Assembly (NCBI GenBank): GCA_965205505.1 | Contig: CBDBHB010000008.1 | Coordinates: 736,001 to 800,000, forward strand | Direction of reading: 5' to 3' | From: Acidobacteriota bacterium | Lineage (GTDB): Bacteria > Acidobacteriota > UBA890 > WLXD01 | DNA: 64,000 nucleotides | In this document: in pieces, positions 58,525 to 64,000 of the stretch | Layout: each line of letters opens with the position of its first letter | Numbering within the stretch: the stretch's first letter is position 1 | Notes under the pieces: model-generated | The model's input: the letters and a program-made list of their open reading frames with translations, nothing else | The model's database searches: none | Told to the model about the DNA's origin: nothing | Made by a program: the position numbers and the translations under genes

Positions 58525-59223
58525 ATGTCCCCCGAACAAGAAAACGACGACCTGGTTCTGAGCGAGCTCGACACCGGCGAGCTCGTCGACCAGATGCACG
58601 ACGATCTCTACGATGGACTGGCCGAGGAGATCGGCGAGGGTACTACCATCCTGCTCGATCGCGGCTGGGAAGCGAAGAAGGTGCTCGACGATGCGCTGGT
58701 CAGCGCCATGAACGTCGTCGGCGAGGACTTCCGCGACGGAATTCTCTTCGTTCCCGAGGTGTTGATGTCCGCCAATGCCATGAAGGCTGGCATGGCCATT
58801 CTGCAGCCGATTCTTACCGAAACCGGCGCGGAACCGGTCGGCAAGATGGTCATCGGCACCGTCAAGGGTGACATCCACGACATCGGCAAGAATCTCGTCG
58901 GCATGATGCTGGAGGGTGCGGGGTTCGAGGTCATCGATCTGGGCATCAACACCGACGCCGACTCATACATCGGGGCGTTGAAGGAACACCGTCCGGACAT
59001 CCTCGGCATGTCCGCATTGCTCACCACGACGATGCCGTACATGAAGGTCGTCATCGACACGCTCAAGGAGCAAGGCATGCGCGACCAGTTCATAGTCATG
59101 GTGGGCGGCGCACCGCTCAACGAGGAGTTCGGGCGAGCCATCGGTGCCGACGCGTACTGCCGTGACGCCGCCACCGCGGTCGAAGTTGCCAAGCGTCTCG
59201 TAGCTGAGCGACGCGCCTCCTAA
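58525..59223 (+). CDS. Corrinoid (B12-binding) methyltransferase protein (MtbC/MttC-like)
   Basis: FVPEVL, GTVKGDIHDIGKNLV (DxHxxG), SALLTTT, VGGAP. Confidence 0.92.
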   Translation: MSPEQENDDLVLSELDTGELVDQMHDDLYDGLAEEIGEGTTILLDRGWEAKKVLDDALVSAMNVVGEDFRDGILFVPEVLMSANAMKAGMAILQPILTETGAEPVGKMVIGTVKGDIHDIGKNLVGMMLEGAGFEVIDLGINTDADSYIGALKEHRPDILGMSALLTTTMPYMKVVIDTLKEQGMRDQFIVMVGGAPLNEEFGRAIGADAYCRDAATAVEVAKRLVAERRAS

Positions 59224-59240
59224 CCGGGGCAACGACAGCC

Positions 59241-59402
59241 GTGCCAGCACTCGTACTCATACTCGCCTGCGGAGCTCTCGCCGACGCCAAGGGATACGCG
59301 GCACGCCTCGACCTGGAGTTCCACCACCGATACGGCGGCCTCGACGGGTTGGCTGCTCCACTCAGCCTGGCAGCCGAAGGAGAGGTCGCGTGGCGCAGTT
59401 GA
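59241..59402 (+). pseudogene. Probable DUF1638 remnant with large in-frame deletion
   Basis: 53-aa ORF missing from the track: LILACGALA joined directly to DAKGYAARLDLEFHHRYGGLDGL. Sits in the usual DUF1638 position after the corrinoid gene. Confidence 0.6.
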
Positions 59403-59704
59403 TCACCATCTACTGGCGCGACATTCCAGCGCAGGTCATCGGCCGCAGCGGCCGTTCCCGCGTCAAGGTCGAGCTGCCGCCGCGGTTTGCGCGAGCGATC
59501 GACAGCGCGGCGATGCGCGCCGGCCGCGGTGGTAGCGACGAGTACCTCGCCGATTGGCGACGCGATCGCCAACCGTGCTCCGGGAATCTCGAGGAGGAGG
59601 TGGCCGCGCAGGTCGCACAACTCGAAAGCGAGTTCTCCGAAAGCACGCTACGAGCCATAGTCCAGGCCAACGGCCTGGCGCAAACTCGTGAGCCAACCCA
59701 ATGA
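59390..59704 (+). CDS. 'Virulence factor' (Virulence_fact) domain protein of corrinoid clusters
   Basis: YWRDIPAQV, RF..AIDSAAM, YLADWRR. Confidence 0.75.
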   Translation: MAQLITIYWRDIPAQVIGRSGRSRVKVELPPRFARAIDSAAMRAGRGGSDEYLADWRRDRQPCSGNLEEEVAAQVAQLESEFSESTLRAIVQANGLAQTREPTQ

Positions 59705-60600: not shown

Positions 60601-60607
60601 ACGGACA

Positions 60608-62629
60608 GTGGCACAGCCCGACGCGCTGATCGTTTTCACCCCCTCGGGAAAGCGTGGGCGATTCGCCCTCGACACGCCGATCCTCGACGCTGCTCGGCAG
60701 CTCGGGGTCGATGTCGATTCGGTGTGCGGCGGGCGCGGCATCTGCGGCCGCTGCCAGGTGACGCTGAGCGAGGGCGAATTCGCCAAGCACGGAATTACCT
60801 CGCAGGCAGACCACCTGACACCGCTGTCTGAGCCTGAACACCGCTACGCGGACAAGAGTGGGCTCGGGAAGGACCGCAGGTTGAGCTGCCACACACGGCT
60901 GCGCGGCGACGTGGTCATCGACGTGCCGGCGAGCAGCCAGGTACACCGCCAGGTCGTGCGCAAAGAGCTCGACGCACGTGACATCGAGCTCGATCCGGTG
61001 GTCCGATTGCACTTCGTCGAGGTGGCAGAGCCCGACATGGACGATCCGAGGGCGGACCTCGAACGGCTTTGCGACGCGCTGGAACGCGAGTGGGGGGTAA
61101 CCGACCTGACTTGCGATCCGACCGCGCTCCGCCGACTCCAACCGGCACTCCGCGACGGCAAGTGGTCGGTGACGGTGGCGGTGCGCGAGGGCAGCGAGAT
61201 CATCGCCGTCTGGCCAGGTTTTCTCGACACCATCTACGGCATGGCGGTGGATGTCGGCTCGACCACCATTGCGGCACATCTTTGCGATCTTTTCACCGGG
61301 GTGGTCGCAGCCAGCGCCGGGCTCATGAATCCCCAGATCCGGTTCGGCGAGGACCTCATGAGCCGGGTCTCCTACGTGATGATGAACCCCGGCGGTGAGG
61401 AACAGCTGACCAAGGTTGTCCGCGAGGCCATCGCCACGCTGGTGGCAGAGGTGAGCGCGGCCGCTGGTGTGTCACCGAGCGACATACTCGAAATCACCCT
61501 CGTCGGCAATCCGGTGATGCACCATCTGTTGCTCGGCATCGATCCGACGCCGCTGGGAACCGCGCCGTTCGCGCTGGCCACCGAACGCGCCACGACGCTG
61601 CCTGCCAGGCAACTCAAGCTCGGAGTTCACCCCGGAGCTCGAGCCTACCTTCTACCCTGTATCGCCGGCCACGTCGGTGCCGATACCGCCGGCATGCTGC
61701 TGGCGGAAGCACCGTACCGCGACGATGTGATCACGCTGCTGGTCGACGTGGGGACGAATGCCGAGCTCGTGCTCGGAAACCGCAAGAGCTTGGTGGCGGC
61801 CTCGAGCCCCACCGGGCCCGCCTTCGAGGGAGCACAGATCAGCTGCGGCCAGCGCGCCGCGCCAGGCGCGATCGAAAGAGTGCGTATCGATCGCGACACA
61901 CTGGAGCCGCGGTTCAAGGTCATCGGCTGCGAGCTCTGGTCGGACGACCCCGAGTTCGCCGGACAGACGAGCTCAACGGGCGTCACTGGTGTCTGCGGCT
62001 CCGGTATCATCGAGGTGGTTGCCGAGATGTACCTGACCGGCATCATCGACGAGGACGGCGCGCTCGACGGGCGGCTTGCTGAGCGTAGCCCCCGGATCGT
62101 AGCGGACGGCCGTACGCATGCCTACGTATTGCACGAAGGCGAGCCCTGCGTGCGCATCGTCCAGAACGATGTTCGTGCGATTCAGCTGGCCAAAGGCGCC
62201 CTATACGCAGGTGCCCGCCTGTTGATGGAGCGCTTGGGCGTCGAGAAAGTGGATCGCATCCGGCTGGCGGGCGCCTTCGGCAGCCATATCGACGTGAAAT
62301 ACGCCATGGTGCTGGGCATGATCCCCGACTGCGACTTGAGCCACGTCTCCTCGGCTGGCAACGCTGCCGGTGCCGGCGCGCGCATCGCGCTGCTCGACGC
62401 TAGCGCCCGCGCCGAGATCGAAATCTGGGTGCGCCGCATCGAGAAGGTGGAGACGGCGGTGGCCGACAGCTTTCAGCATCACTTCGTCAACGCGATGGCC
62501 ATACCGAACAAAGAGGCGCCGTTCCCTGAGCTAGCCAAGGTCGTATCACTGCCTACGCCGAAGCAGGCTACCGACACCGATCGGCGCGGTCGGCGCGGTC
62601 GGCGGCGGCGCGGCCCACCGACGAGCTGA
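60608..62629 (+). CDS. ASKHA-type ATP-dependent corrinoid reductive activator (RamA/RACE, DUF4445) with N-terminal [2Fe-2S]
   Basis: CGGRGICGRC...RLSC, DVGSTT, GEDLMSR, DVGTNAE, GPAFEG, CGSG, AGAFG, GNAA; Arg-rich tail. Confidence 0.9.
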   Translation: MAQPDALIVFTPSGKRGRFALDTPILDAARQLGVDVDSVCGGRGICGRCQVTLSEGEFAKHGITSQADHLTPLSEPEHRYADKSGLGKDRRLSCHTRLRGDVVIDVPASSQVHRQVVRKELDARDIELDPVVRLHFVEVAEPDMDDPRADLERLCDALEREWGVTDLTCDPTALRRLQPALRDGKWSVTVAVREGSEIIAVWPGFLDTIYGMAVDVGSTTIAAHLCDLFTGVVAASAGLMNPQIRFGEDLMSRVSYVMMNPGGEEQLTKVVREAIATLVAEVSAAAGVSPSDILEITLVGNPVMHHLLLGIDPTPLGTAPFALATERATTLPARQLKLGVHPGARAYLLPCIAGHVGADTAGMLLAEAPYRDDVITLLVDVGTNAELVLGNRKSLVAASSPTGPAFEGAQISCGQRAAPGAIERVRIDRDTLEPRFKVIGCELWSDDPEFAGQTSSTGVTGVCGSGIIEVVAEMYLTGIIDEDGALDGRLAERSPRIVADGRTHAYVLHEGEPCVRIVQNDVRAIQLAKGALYAGARLLMERLGVEKVDRIRLAGAFGSHIDVKYAMVLGMIPDCDLSHVSSAGNAAGAGARIALLDASARAEIEIWVRRIEKVETAVADSFQHHFVNAMAIPNKEAPFPELAKVVSLPTPKQATDTDRRGRRGRRRRGPPTS

Positions 62630-62635
62630 GCGTCG

Positions 62636-64000
62636 TCAGGCCTGCCGCGCCTTTCGGCGGCGCTTTCTCTTGCGCGGCACCGGACCCGCAGCGTTCCCGC
62701 CAGTCCCTCGCGTCACCGGGGTAGGCACGTACGGTAGCTCTTCCTGCGACTCGAAGCCCGACGTGATCAGGCGCTCCAGCTCGGCTACGATCGCGGCATC
62801 GGTGTCGAGTGGCTCGTACTTGGCGAGTCGTTCCTCGACCTCGTCGGCAGCCCGCTCAGGAAGCTCCTTGCCGCCCTGCTTGATCCAGGCCTCGCGGTTC
62901 TCGCGGTCCACGACGGGGCTGGTGAGATAGAGTTCCTGCGGCCAATGCTCGAGCGTGTGCTCAGCGGTGATCAGGTGGTTTTCCGCCATCAGCTCGGTCG
63001 CCAGGTGGGCAACCGGCAGGTCGTCCAGTGTGCGGATCTCACGCACGAAGTGGAGCGCCTGCCCACACATCTCATCGTCGAACACGAGCTTCGCGAGGCT
63101 GAAGACGAGCACGAAATCGAGCATCCCGGGACCCGATACCGAGTTGACACCGGCCAACGCCGCCAGCAACGCCGACCCGAACGTCTCGGCGCCCGCCTGT
63201 GCATCGAGAAGCTTGCCATCGCTGAGCGCCATGTACGCTTGAGTGGGCAAGTCGAGTGACTTGGCAACGGCAACATAGGCAGTATCCAGCTGCAGCGCTT
63301 CGATCGCCGCCATCGGCGCGCTCGCCGCTTTCATGTGGAAGGTCGCCGGTGCCCCTCCGAAGATTACCGGTGTCCCCTGCCGAACGATCTGGGCCATCGT
63401 AAGCCCCGCGAGCACGTCGATGGTGTGAAACACCGTCGCCCCTACCAGCGTCACCGGTGCGATAAGCCCCATCAGGGTGACCGGGACGATCTCAACCGGA
63501 ATTCCCCGCTCGGCACAGTCGATGATGTTCTGGCACGAGTCCTCGCCATAGCGGAAGTTTCCCGTCGCGGTGATCGTGAAGATCGACATCGGGCGTGCCA
63601 TCAGATCGGCCGCGTCGTCGCGGAACAGCCGCATCATGTCCGCCATCCGAGGCACACCGTGTTCCGTGAAAGCTCCCGACACCACCGGCTTGCGGCTATT
63701 GGTCAGACAAATATAGAGCCGCCACGCATCGGAAACCTGCGCCTCGATGTCGTCGTTGGTGGAGAACGCAGTGGCAAGATAGGCAATGTTCGTGAGCCCG
63801 TCGCACAACCGGACGTACTCGGTGAAGTCGGTGGAGTTGGCTAACCGCGTCTCGCCGGTGCGATGGTCCAGGACTTTTAGTCCGCTCGAGCCCGGAACAA
63901 AGTGCACGTTGTTGCCGCCAATCTCCGTGTAGGCAGAACCGTGCCGATCAAACAAGGTGAACGACTTGGGAATGCTGGCGATCGCCGCCTCCACCACGTC
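62636..64000 (-). CDS. Trimethylamine methyltransferase (MttB) superfamily, non-pyrrolysine; 5' end outside window
   Basis: [36 protein letters not shown]...S..KLV.D.E, HTLEH; no in-frame TAG in the visible part. Confidence 0.88.

What the first reader, a model, noticed from the sequence alone, without database searches (positions are those of the whole stretch)
58525..62700. Poly-Arg C-terminal tails on all three corrinoid-partner enzymes versus an acidic N-terminus on the corrinoid protein: a candidate electrostatic docking code
Seen: the pterin methyltransferase ends ...SERQRRGRRARRRP, the RACE activator ends ...TDRRGRRGRRRRGPPTS, and MttB (opposite strand) ends ...[16 protein letters not shown], each after a flexible linker. 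These are three unrelated folds, and other credible proteins in the window lack such tails. The corrinoid protein starts MSPEQENDDLVLSELDTGELVDQMHDDLYDGLAEEIGEG (14 D/E and no K/R in 39 residues). Known: MT1, MT2 and the activator must each bind the same corrinoid protein in turn. Inference: a shared peptide tag that recruits partners to the B12 carrier, non-covalently replacing the linkers of fused MetH, or drives a condensate/metabolon shielding Co(I). The MttB tail uses Lys and AGA codons, which argues against a pure GC artefact.
Basis: partly seen in the sequence, partly recalled or inferred. Interest (0 to 1): 0.8.

Follow-up and report, generated by a model that had tools for sequence, protein, structure and literature searches.

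The report
Arginine tails on B12-carrier client enzymes
In a known split vitamin-B12 methyl-transfer system, every enzyme that must visit the small B12 carrier protein carries a floppy arginine-rich end and the carrier carries a matching acidic front end, a conserved and apparently undescribed pairing that probably helps the separate proteins find each other, though no binding has been shown.

Summary
The cluster is the aerobic split cobalamin methyltransferase system: corrinoid carrier MtgC, a PF13769 protein, pterin methyltransferase MtgD, a RamA/RACo activator and a convergent MttB-family enzyme.

All three enzymes end in Arg-rich peptides. Only 9 of 4553 rough gene calls in this genome reach the same tail density, and two of those are in this cluster.

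The tails are not a GC artefact:
- They persist in 75 of 76 MtgD and 60 of 64 RACo orthologues across several phyla, at locus GC 0.43-0.72.
- Tail strength correlates negatively with GC.

The other MttB subfamily carries the basic motif at its N-terminus instead. Stand-alone homocysteine modules (4 of 4) also end in Arg tails.

Solved anaerobic homologues stop where the tails begin. In loci with tail-less RACo, 24 neighbouring corrinoid proteins lack the acidic extension.

My best reading, at about 0.6, is a shared electrostatic docking tag for the very acidic MtgC (net charge -23). Binding is untested, because the complex predictor was unavailable.

Papers on this system do not mention the tails. 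This scan had already noted the same pairing in at least six other genomes.

The parts
58525..59223 (+). Corrinoid carrier protein (MtgC type): acidic N-terminal add-on, four-helix cap, Rossmann B12-binding domain
   Evidence: Pfam B12-binding_2 (residues 21-93) and B12-binding (107-218). AF2 mean pLDDT 88.7. Net charge -23, pI 4.3.
58525..58590 (+). Acidic N-terminal extension of MtgC (about residues 1-22, MSPEQENDDLVLSELDTGELVD)
   Evidence: Extra relative to PDB homologues (1Y80 chain residue 6 aligns to query 23). Conserved pattern in 53 orthologues, with D/E 5-14 and K/R 0-2. Residues 1-7 have pLDDT below 50; residues 11-20 about 95.
59390..59704 (+). PF13769 ('Virulence_fact') small protein of unknown role; no charged terminus
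   Evidence: Pfam E 1e-20. Present in 61 of 80 related loci. Not found in 2 of 5 whole records that keep the tails.
59701..60600 (+). Pterin-binding methyltransferase (MtgD type, methyl-H4folate:corrinoid)
   Evidence: Pfam Pterin_bind E 7.7e-28. PDB MeTr 2YCI E 3.6e-41.
60544..60597 (+). MtgD linker plus Arg-rich tail (residues 282-299, PASGSERQRRGRRARRRP)
   Evidence: Beyond the end of the solved MeTr homologue (query 280 aligns to chain 270 of 271). AF2: coil after helix 272-278, pLDDT below 50 for 286-298. 119 of 120 best homologues have at least 6 R/K in the last 16 residues.
60608..62629 (+). RamA/RACo-type ATP-dependent reductive activator (2Fe-2S plus ASKHA)
   Evidence: Pfam Fer2, RACo_linker, Raco_middle, RACo_C_ter. 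PDB 3ZYY E 1.9e-95. It is the only copy in the genome.
62579..62626 (+). RACo Arg-rich tail (DRRGRRGRRRRGPPTS), following a linker of about 20 residues
   Evidence: Query residues 638-673 extend past the alignment to 3ZYY, which ends at chain residue 624 of 631. 60 of 64 orthologues have at least 5 R/K per 12-residue window.
62636..64000 (-). MttB-superfamily methyltransferase (non-Pyl), the subfamily with a C-terminal tag. The gene runs off the window; it is 512 aa from MRPTLN in the genome.
   Evidence: Pfam MTTB E 1.2e-66. No internal stop. PDB MtgB 9YCE E 3.1e-47.
62639..62677 (-). MttB Arg/Lys-rich tail ([13 protein letters not shown]), following a Pro-rich linker
   Evidence: Query residues 473-512 lie beyond the alignment with MtgB 9YCE, which ends at chain residue 469 of 477. 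112 of 120 subfamily homologues have at least 5 R/K in the last 16 residues.

Best explanation
The cluster encodes the aerobic split cobalamin methyltransferase system, in which one small corrinoid carrier (MtgC) is visited in turn by several separate enzymes: MttB-family substrate methyltransferases, the pterin methyltransferase MtgD, the RamA/RACo activator and, in genomes that have it, the homocysteine module.

Each client carries a short, disordered Arg-rich peptide on a flexible linker at one terminus. MtgC is strongly acidic and carries a clade-specific acidic N-terminal add-on on its cap domain.

I infer that the basic peptide is a shared docking or tethering tag. It forms a fast-exchanging electrostatic encounter complex with the acidic tip and cap of MtgC. 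This would overcome the like-charge repulsion between MtgC and the acidic cores of its clients, raise the local concentration so the B12 domain can dock on each active site, and make client binding mutually exclusive so the carrier is handed from one enzyme to the next.

Shown: the sequence features, their conservation, their co-occurrence, and the predicted disorder. Inferred: the binding itself, its site and its kinetic role.
For: (1) Rarity and clustering in this genome: 9 of 4553 ORFs reach at least 8 R/K per 12-residue window, and two of these nine are neighbouring genes here (RACo and MttB); MtgD, which my gene caller dropped, also scores 8 by eye, so three neighbouring genes reach that density.

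(2) Conservation of composition while sequence drifts. All five related genomes (RACo 62-94% identical) keep the tails on all three enzymes. So do 119 of 120 MtgD and 112 of 120 MttB homologues. In 80 genome loci from Gamma-, Alpha- and Betaproteobacteria, Chloroflexota and Actinomycetota, 75 of 76 MtgD and 60 of 64 RACo keep them.

(3) Not GC-driven: loci span GC 0.43-0.72, and tail strength correlates negatively with GC (rho -0.40 and -0.26). Low-GC loci use AGA, CGT and AAA codons.

(4) Independent acquisitions on unrelated folds and at either terminus. The other MttB subfamily has the basic motif directly after its start Met (32 of 41 at threshold, most of the rest a weaker form) and no C-terminal tail (1 of 41). 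G000's own two other MttB paralogues do the same.

(5) A prediction was fulfilled: stand-alone homocysteine-binding modules in genomes with the module end in Arg-rich tails in 4 of 4 cases.

(6) The receptor candidate co-occurs. The MtgC N-terminus up to cap helix 1 is 30.3 residues on average with net acidic charge 11.4 (n=32). The 24 corrinoid proteins beside tail-less RACo average 16.7 residues and 0.7. The single MtgC-type locus in that set again has tails on RACo and MtgD and a basic MttB N-terminus.

(7) Solved anaerobic homologues (MeTr 2YCI, MtgA 4O0Q, RACo 3ZYY, MtgB 9YCE) end where the linker begins. Two fused relatives have neither a basic nor an acidic cluster.

(8) Charges: MtgC is -23; client cores are -10, -24 and -30; tails are +7, +7 and +10.

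(9) The tail is predicted to be disordered.

(10) Weak charge co-variation across 55 loci: rho 0.39, p 0.003 for MtgD.
Against: - No binding evidence of any kind exists. The complex prediction could not be run.
- The co-occurrence is largely one clade, so it counts as few independent events. The charge co-variation is not corrected for phylogeny and is not significant for RACo (rho 0.23, p 0.09).
- In this genome nearly every other protein with such a tail binds nucleic acid or the ribosome, or is a membrane protein: TopoI, Ku, PriA, DEAD-box helicases, Ffh, RsgA, YidC, Def, S9, Lon. A polyanion other than MtgC is therefore a natural alternative target.
- Part of the 'acidic N-terminus' is ordinary cap helix, and residues 11-20 are predicted ordered, so it is not simply a floppy counter-tail.
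- DUF1638, genetically linked to the system, has no tag.
- G000's own stand-alone S-methyltransferase homologue has none.
- A few orthologues have weak tails, for example L064 and L077.
Confidence: 0.6

Rival explanations
1. The tails bind a general cellular polyanion (RNA or ribosome, DNA, polyphosphate, anionic membrane). This would co-localise the enzymes, or form a coacervate, without direct recognition of MtgC.
For: All but a few of the other strongly basic C-termini in this genome belong to nucleic-acid-, ribosome- or membrane-associated proteins. The Gly-punctuated Arg runs (RGRRGGRRRR type) resemble RNA-binding RGG-like segments; that resemblance is recalled, not tested.
Against: This does not explain why the carrier gains a clade-specific acidic add-on exactly where the tails occur, or why both are absent together. 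The tag is restricted to the enzymes that must visit MtgC, across 4-5 unrelated folds.
Confidence: 0.15
2. The tails dock on another component of the system (the PF13769 protein, DUF1638, or the acidic core of the client itself as an intramolecular, autoinhibitory or stabilising element) rather than on MtgC.
For: PF13769 co-occurs with the tail-bearing module: 61 of 80 loci, against 1 of 80 loci in the tail-less set, and that one is the MtgC-type locus. Client cores are strongly acidic, so intramolecular binding is physically possible.
Against: PF13769 was not found in 2 of 5 whole records (a complete Amphritea genome and a Pseudomonadales chromosome) that keep the tails and the acidic MtgC. 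PF13769 has net charge 0. DUF1638 is only -9 and is often fused to MtgC in the longer-protein search, which would again place the receptor at MtgC.
Confidence: 0.1
3. The tails have no specific partner. They are charge-balancing or solubility appendages on very acidic enzymes, or neutral low-complexity extensions inherited with a horizontally spreading gene cluster.
For: Client cores are net -10 to -30. The tail sequences themselves drift freely. Much of the distribution could reflect one mobile, highly conserved cluster (70-80% identity across phyla).
Against: Neutral extensions would not keep their composition across GC 0.43-0.72 with a negative GC trend. They would not reappear at the N-terminus of another MttB subfamily, on the unlinked homocysteine module, and on paralogues far from the cluster in this genome.
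Confidence: 0.1

Closest known systems
Aerobic MtgB/MtgC/MtgD(/MtgE) glycine-betaine methyltransferase and split methionine synthase with a RamA-like activase and DUF1638 (Ruegeria pomeroyi, Mausz et al. 2025, PMC12478193; Phaeobacter inhibens, Price et al. 2018, PMC5764234)
   Same: The parts list is the same: a small corrinoid protein, a pterin-binding methyltransferase, non-Pyl PF06253 enzymes and a ferredoxin plus DUF4445/RACo activator, with DUF1638 elsewhere in the genome. Both papers describe one carrier serving several separate enzymes (Results, Discussion, passages).
   Different: Neither paper mentions the charged termini. The words 'arginine' and 'tail' occur 0 times in PMC12478193, 'arginine-rich' occurs 0 times in PMC5764234, and a 2025 preprint on MtgBCD gives 0 hits. 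The supplements were not examined. Here the genome also has a full-length MetH. The neighbouring MttB is a different subfamily (about 25% identical to the common one) whose substrate is unknown, and a PF13769 gene sits in the operon.
Classical fused methionine synthase MetH
   Same: The same chemistry and the same domain families: Pterin_bind, cap plus B12-binding, homocysteine module.
   Different: In MetH the modules are joined covalently, so no docking tag is needed. Two fused relatives examined here (a CmuA-like 595-aa protein and a MetH-like 841-aa protein) have no basic or acidic 12-residue clusters.
Methanogen MtaC-MtaB and MttC-MttB complexes (PMC9842639, passages read)
   Same: There is precedent for an N-terminal add-on of a corrinoid protein serving as a docking element. 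That paper states that MtaC has an extra N-terminal domain that fits a groove between MtaB subunits, and that MttC's cap contacts MttB's dimerisation loop.
   Different: Those contacts are folded-domain interfaces specific to one enzyme. They are not a charge-complementary peptide shared by all clients. The solved MttC, MtgB and MttB chains lack the extensions.
RACo-CoFeSP activation complex (PDB 3ZYY, 4C1N)
   Same: The window's activator aligns over residues 7-637 with RACo (E 1.9e-95).
   Different: The solved RACo ends 7 residues after the aligned ASKHA domain, whereas the window protein has 36 more residues including the Arg run. Among 78 near-full-length family representatives, tails are common only near the query: 8 of 9 at 50% identity or more, against 3 of 29 below 40%.
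Basic C-terminal tails of nucleic-acid- and ribosome-binding proteins
   Same: Similar composition and predicted disorder. These are the only other frequent carriers of such tails in this genome.
   Different: Those tails sit on proteins whose substrate is itself a polyanion. Here they sit on metabolic enzymes whose common partner is an acidic protein.

Membership tests
Aerobic MtgBCD(E)/RamA split cobalamin methyltransferase system | Stand-alone corrinoid protein with cap (B12-binding_2) and B12-binding domains | tested here: met
   Pfam E 8.4e-17 and 7.9e-27. It is the only small corrinoid protein of this type in the genome.
Aerobic MtgBCD(E)/RamA split cobalamin methyltransferase system | Separate pterin-binding methyltransferase (MtgD) | tested here: met
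   Pfam Pterin_bind E 7.7e-28. The best database homologues are named methyltetrahydrofolate cobalamin methyltransferase by their sources.
Aerobic MtgBCD(E)/RamA split cobalamin methyltransferase system | One or more non-pyrrolysine PF06253 (MttB-family) enzymes | tested here: met
   Three copies in the genome, none with an internal stop.
Aerobic MtgBCD(E)/RamA split cobalamin methyltransferase system | RamA-like activator (ferredoxin plus DUF4445/RACo) and DUF1638 | tested here: met
   RACo domains. DUF1638 at C7:248866-249333, E 1.4e-25.
Aerobic MtgBCD(E)/RamA split cobalamin methyltransferase system | Orthology to the characterised R. pomeroyi and P. inhibens proteins, and glycine-betaine demethylation activity | not tested
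   Their sequences were not fetched. The substrate of the window's MttB subfamily is unknown, and activity cannot be tested with these tools.
RACo/RamA reductive activators of corrinoid enzymes | N-terminal 2Fe-2S ferredoxin domain, linker, middle domain, ASKHA ATPase domain | tested here: met
   All four Pfam domains are present, and 3ZYY aligns over residues 7-637.
MttB superfamily | Full-length PF06253 TIM-barrel methyltransferase | tested here: met
   PF06253 positions 17-492 of 500 in the genome search. MtgB 9YCE E 3.1e-47.
Shared terminal docking tag (proposed here, not an established family) | An Arg-rich disordered terminus on every MtgC client, absent from non-clients and from systems without the acidic MtgC add-on | tested here: met
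   Exceptions: DUF1638 and PF13769 carry none.
Shared terminal docking tag (proposed here, not an established family) | Physical binding of the tag to MtgC | not testable with these tools

The most novel reading that the evidence does not exclude
The Arg-rich terminus is a portable address label that defines the client set of the MtgC carrier. Any enzyme that acquires it at either end gains access to the shared B12 carrier.

The label works by binding the acidic tip and cap, and so also helps pull the cap off the corrin ring. On this reading it is a non-covalent, competitive substitute for MetH's linkers that sets the order and rate of hand-over.

If so, scanning genomes for this label next to TIM-barrel or other methyltransferase folds would reveal unknown B12-dependent demethylases. 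Grafting the label should make foreign enzymes clients.
Probability: 0.35. Interest if true: 0.8.

Novelty: new variant of a known kind. Interest (0 to 1): 0.6.

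Why it matters
The MtgBCD(E) system was reported in 2025 as a major route of glycine-betaine demethylation and methionine synthesis in abundant marine and soil bacteria. 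How one carrier is shared by up to seven or more separate enzymes is not explained in the papers I read.

A conserved charge-complementary tag would give a concrete, testable mechanism for partner recruitment and hand-over in split B12 enzymes. It would also give a sequence signature for finding new clients, and a simple handle for engineering such pathways.

The finding is comparative only. Its value lies in making the question directly testable with tail deletions, charge swaps and salt titrations.

Tried and rejected
- GC artefact: rejected.
- Chance: rejected on genome background.
- RNA-level explanation for the convergent 3' ends: the 121-nt region folds no better than shuffles (z 0.55). 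One terminator-like hairpin lies inside the MttB tail codons, but this is specific to this window and cannot explain the conservation elsewhere.
- Complex prediction (MtgC alignment against the last 45 residues of MtgD): the queue was full, and the tool was declared unavailable. Nothing was folded, so there is no verdict.
- Natural MtgC-MtgD fusions as a test: the two candidates (P0408, P0447) have out-of-frame-looking C-termini and are probably gene-call artefacts, so I did not use them.
- DUF1638 and PF13769 as further tagged clients: neither has a basic terminus in this genome.
- G000's stand-alone S-methyltransferase homologue: no tail. It is a weaker match (137.7 bits, against 190.8-224.5 for the tagged ones) and probably a different enzyme.
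- One search was a mistyped query. Searches were script errors, repaired.
- Limits of my counts:
  - The gene caller is home-made, with longest-ORF starts, so N-termini genome-wide are unreliable.
  - In one search I kept 78 of the 150 listed representatives by eye (single near-full-length alignments) and dropped 72 fragments or multi-piece rows before counting.
  - The correlations are not corrected for phylogeny.

Full report
**What is there**

The region holds five genes:
- a corrinoid carrier protein, 58525-59223(+), with cap and B12-binding domains;
- a small PF13769 protein, 59390-59704(+);
- a pterin-binding methyltransferase, 59701-60600(+);
- a RamA/RACo-type reductive activator, with 2Fe-2S, linker, middle and ASKHA domains. 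Its ORF runs from 60485, but the likely start is GTG 60608, eight bases after the previous stop; it ends at 62629(+);
- a convergent MttB-family methyltransferase that begins beyond the window and ends at 62636(-).

The window is G000:C8:736001-800000 in a 5.98 Mb genome of 64% GC. That genome has one RACo, one small corrinoid protein of this type, three PF06253 genes without internal stops, a DUF1638 gene and a full-length MetH.

This parts list matches the aerobic MtgB/MtgC/MtgD(/MtgE) plus RamA plus DUF1638 system. Mausz et al. 2025 describe it in Ruegeria pomeroyi (PMC12478193; I read the outline, Results part 1 and the Discussion). Price et al. 2018 describe the split methionine synthase of Phaeobacter inhibens (PMC5764234; passages only).

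The three enzymes end ...SERQRRGRRARRRP...DRRGRRGRRRRGPPTS and ...[13 protein letters not shown].

I made a rough gene call of the genome with codon-usage scoring of longest ORFs, giving 4553 ORFs of at least 80 aa. Of these, 108 (2.4%) have at least 6 R/K in some 12-residue window of the last 30 residues, 31 have at least 7, and 9 have at least 8. RACo scores 8 and MttB 9. MtgD also scores 8 by eye; my caller dropped it because the long RACo ORF overlaps it.

I scanned 20 of the other 29 proteins scoring at least 7 against Pfam. They are RsgA, topoisomerase I, YidC, Ffh, PriA, two DEAD-box helicases, Ku, Lon, peptide deformylase, ribosomal protein S9, an RF-1-domain protein, IstB, an integrase, two EamA transporters and a GGDEF-HD protein; three matched no family. 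Outside this cluster, then, such tails sit on proteins that bind nucleic acid, the ribosome or the membrane.

The 'acidic N-terminus' needs trimming:
- Pfam's cap domain begins at residue 21.
- The closest solved homologue, 1Y80, aligns from query residue 23 to its own residue 6.
- In an AlphaFold2 model built on 32 orthologues (mean pLDDT 88.7), residues 1-7 are below 50, residues 11-20 average about 95, and helix 1 spans 17-29.

The add-on is therefore about 17-20 residues: a floppy acidic tip plus a short ordered conserved segment. The first 25 residues have net charge -8 and the whole protein -23, with pI 4.3.

**Conservation**

Four genomes of the same genus, and one of another genus in the family (RACo 62-94% identical), keep Arg-rich tails on all three enzymes and keep the acidic start of MtgC. 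The linkers and the exact tail sequences differ.

In the large protein collection:
- 119 of the 120 best MtgD homologues (76-94% identical) have at least 6 R/K in the last 16 residues. Sources name some of them as Sneathiella, Arenicellales, Thioglobus and Dongiaceae.
- 112 of the 120 best homologues of the window's MttB subfamily (73-100% identical) have at least 5, after a conserved Pro-rich linker.

A genome-contig scan with an MtgD alignment returned 80 loci from Gamma-, Alpha- and Betaproteobacteria, Chloroflexota and Actinomycetota, with locus GC 0.43-0.72. Within these loci MtgC was found in 70, PF13769 in 61 and RACo in 73.

Among genes with complete 3' ends in those loci:

| Protein | at least 5 R/K per 12-residue window | at least 6 |
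|---|---|---|
| MtgD | 75 of 76 | 68 of 76 |
| RACo | 60 of 64 | 49 of 64 |

Tail strength falls slightly with GC (Spearman -0.40 and -0.26). Loci below 0.55 GC encode the tails largely with CGT, AGA, CGA and AAA. This rejects a GC artefact.

**The tag is on every client, at either end**

MttB paralogues beside the module are mostly of another subfamily, about 25% identical to the window's enzyme. These have no basic C-terminus (1 of 41 reaches the threshold). Instead they carry an Arg-rich, Gly-punctuated motif directly after the start Met:
- 32 of 41 reach at least 5 R/K per 12 residues.
- Eight of the other nine show a weaker form of the same motif.
- The ninth (L021) has a basic C-terminus instead.

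G000's own two other MttB genes on contig C9, far from the cluster, have the same N-terminal motif. The solved chain 4YYC aligns with one of them through its own N-terminal RG-rich stretch.

I then tested a prediction. The papers say the homocysteine-binding module is a further separate client of MtgC, so it should carry the tag too. In five whole records that hold the module, the four stand-alone S-methyltransferase genes all end in Arg-rich tails after a linker. The other two hits were full-length MetH, which I did not examine. G000's own stand-alone homologue is a weaker match and has no tail. DUF1638 and PF13769 have no basic terminus.

**Absence elsewhere**

Solved anaerobic homologues stop where the window proteins' linkers begin:
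- MeTr 2YCI: chain residue 270 of 271 aligns to query 280.
- D. hafniense MtgA 4O0Q: residue 281 of 290 aligns to query 280.
- RACo 3ZYY: residue 624 of 631 aligns to query 637 of 673.
- MtgB 9YCE: residue 469 of 477 aligns to query 472 of 512.

I took the 150 best 50%-identity representatives of RACo and kept 78 near-full-length ones, chosen by eye. The share with a tail of at least 5 falls with distance from the query:

| Identity to the window RACo | With tail |
|---|---|
| 50% or more | 8 of 9 |
| 43-50% | 5 of 16 |
| 40-43% | 3 of 24 |
| below 40% | 3 of 29 |

For a paired control I scanned metagenome contigs with an alignment of 20 tail-less RACo representatives. Of 74 RACo with complete ends, 10 reach 5 and 6 reach 6. 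The 24 neighbouring corrinoid proteins of other types start almost at cap helix 1. Their N-terminus up to the end of that helix averages 16.7 residues, with net acidic charge 0.7 (range -3 to 5). The 32 MtgC orthologues average 30.3 residues and 11.4 (range 8 to 17).

The complete pterin methyltransferases in those loci end without a tail. The single exception is also the single MtgC-type locus (L203), where RACo (7), MtgD (6) and the MttB N-terminus are basic again.

Two fused relatives, a CmuA-like 595-aa protein and a MetH-like 841-aa protein, contain no basic or acidic 12-residue cluster.

**How it most likely works**

MtgC is very acidic, and so are the cores of its clients once the terminal 25 residues are set aside (-10, -24 and -30). 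The tails (+7, +7, +10) are the only strongly positive elements. The MtgD tail is predicted to be coil with pLDDT below 50 after the last helix.

The simplest reading is that a basic peptide on a flexible linker forms a fast, salt-sensitive encounter complex with the acidic tip and cap of MtgC. That would offset like-charge repulsion and tether the carrier while its B12 domain docks. Because all clients use the same handle, it would also make binding competitive and exchange rapid.

Charge co-variation across 55 loci points weakly the same way: rho 0.39, p 0.003 for MtgD and rho 0.23, p 0.09 for RACo, with no correction for phylogeny. All of this mechanism is inferred.

The rivals are as follows:
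- **Another polyanion.** Favoured by the company such tails keep in this genome.
- **PF13769, DUF1638 or the client's own core as the target.** PF13769 co-occurs with the module, but it was not found in 2 of 5 whole records that keep the tails and the acidic MtgC.
- **No specific partner.**

**Comparison with what is known, and novelty**

The gene system is known. The charged termini are not mentioned in the three papers on it that I searched by word. Four full-text searches pairing corrinoid or MttB terms with arginine-rich, basic-tail or electrostatic terms found nothing relevant. I did not examine the supplements.

A related precedent exists for a folded N-terminal domain of MtaC docking on MtaB (PMC9842639, passages).

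This scan had already noted the same pairing in at least six other genomes. Those are unchecked AI notes and not independent evidence, but my tests agree with them. This window adds three things:
- an MttB subfamily with the tag at the C-terminus;
- the within-genome background of other tail-bearing proteins;
- a paired negative set.

**Verdict**

The docking-tag reading is well supported by comparison but unproven. It is a new variant of a known kind, and I score interest at 0.6.

Noticed in passing
window 56811-58381 (+): An ATP-grasp gene (pre-ATP-grasp, IQCH-like ATP-grasp and PGM1_C domains) is split into two overlapping ORFs, and the first has an out-of-frame-looking tail. The same-genus genome G004 has one intact 528-aa ORF (L008:3167-4750), aligned at 92% identity with a single gap. 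This is a frameshift: either a pseudogene or a sequencing error.
   Followed up: partly
window 62642-62663 (+): Terminator-like hairpins for the + strand operon lie inside the MttB tail codons on the other strand. The two convergent genes are only 6 bp apart. The region as a whole folds no better than shuffles (z 0.55).
   Followed up: partly
proteins P0394, P0410, P0414, P0416, P0418 and others: Many longer relatives of MtgC list DUF1638 (PF07796) together with the cap and B12 domains, at 417-460 aa. This suggests recurrent MtgC-DUF1638 fusions, and hence a stable rather than visiting partnership. Several are single-member gene calls and could be artefacts.
   Followed up: partly
window 59390-59704 (+) and loci L013-L092: A PF13769 ('Virulence_fact') gene sits between mtgC and mtgD in 61 of 80 related loci. 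It appears in only 1 of 80 loci of the tail-less RACo set. It was not found in 2 of 5 whole records that have the system. Its role is unknown.
   Followed up: partly
window 51199-56147 (+): Directly upstream lies a three-subunit molybdopterin dehydrogenase (2Fe-2S, MoCo-binding and FAD-binding subunits) followed by a cytochrome b561-type membrane protein. No link to the methyltransferase cluster was examined.
   Followed up: no
G000:C9:1070777-1071547 (-), locus L115: A 256-aa ORF with good coding score and no Pfam family ends in eleven consecutive lysines.
   Followed up: no
PDB 4YYC, seen through L102:192-1724: A solved 'putative trimethylamine methyltransferase' chain includes the N-terminal RG-rich motif in its deposited sequence. 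Whether those residues are ordered could show how the tag sits when unbound.
   Followed up: no
window 15015-15779 (+): An IS110-family transposase ORF (Transposase_20 domain).
   Followed up: no
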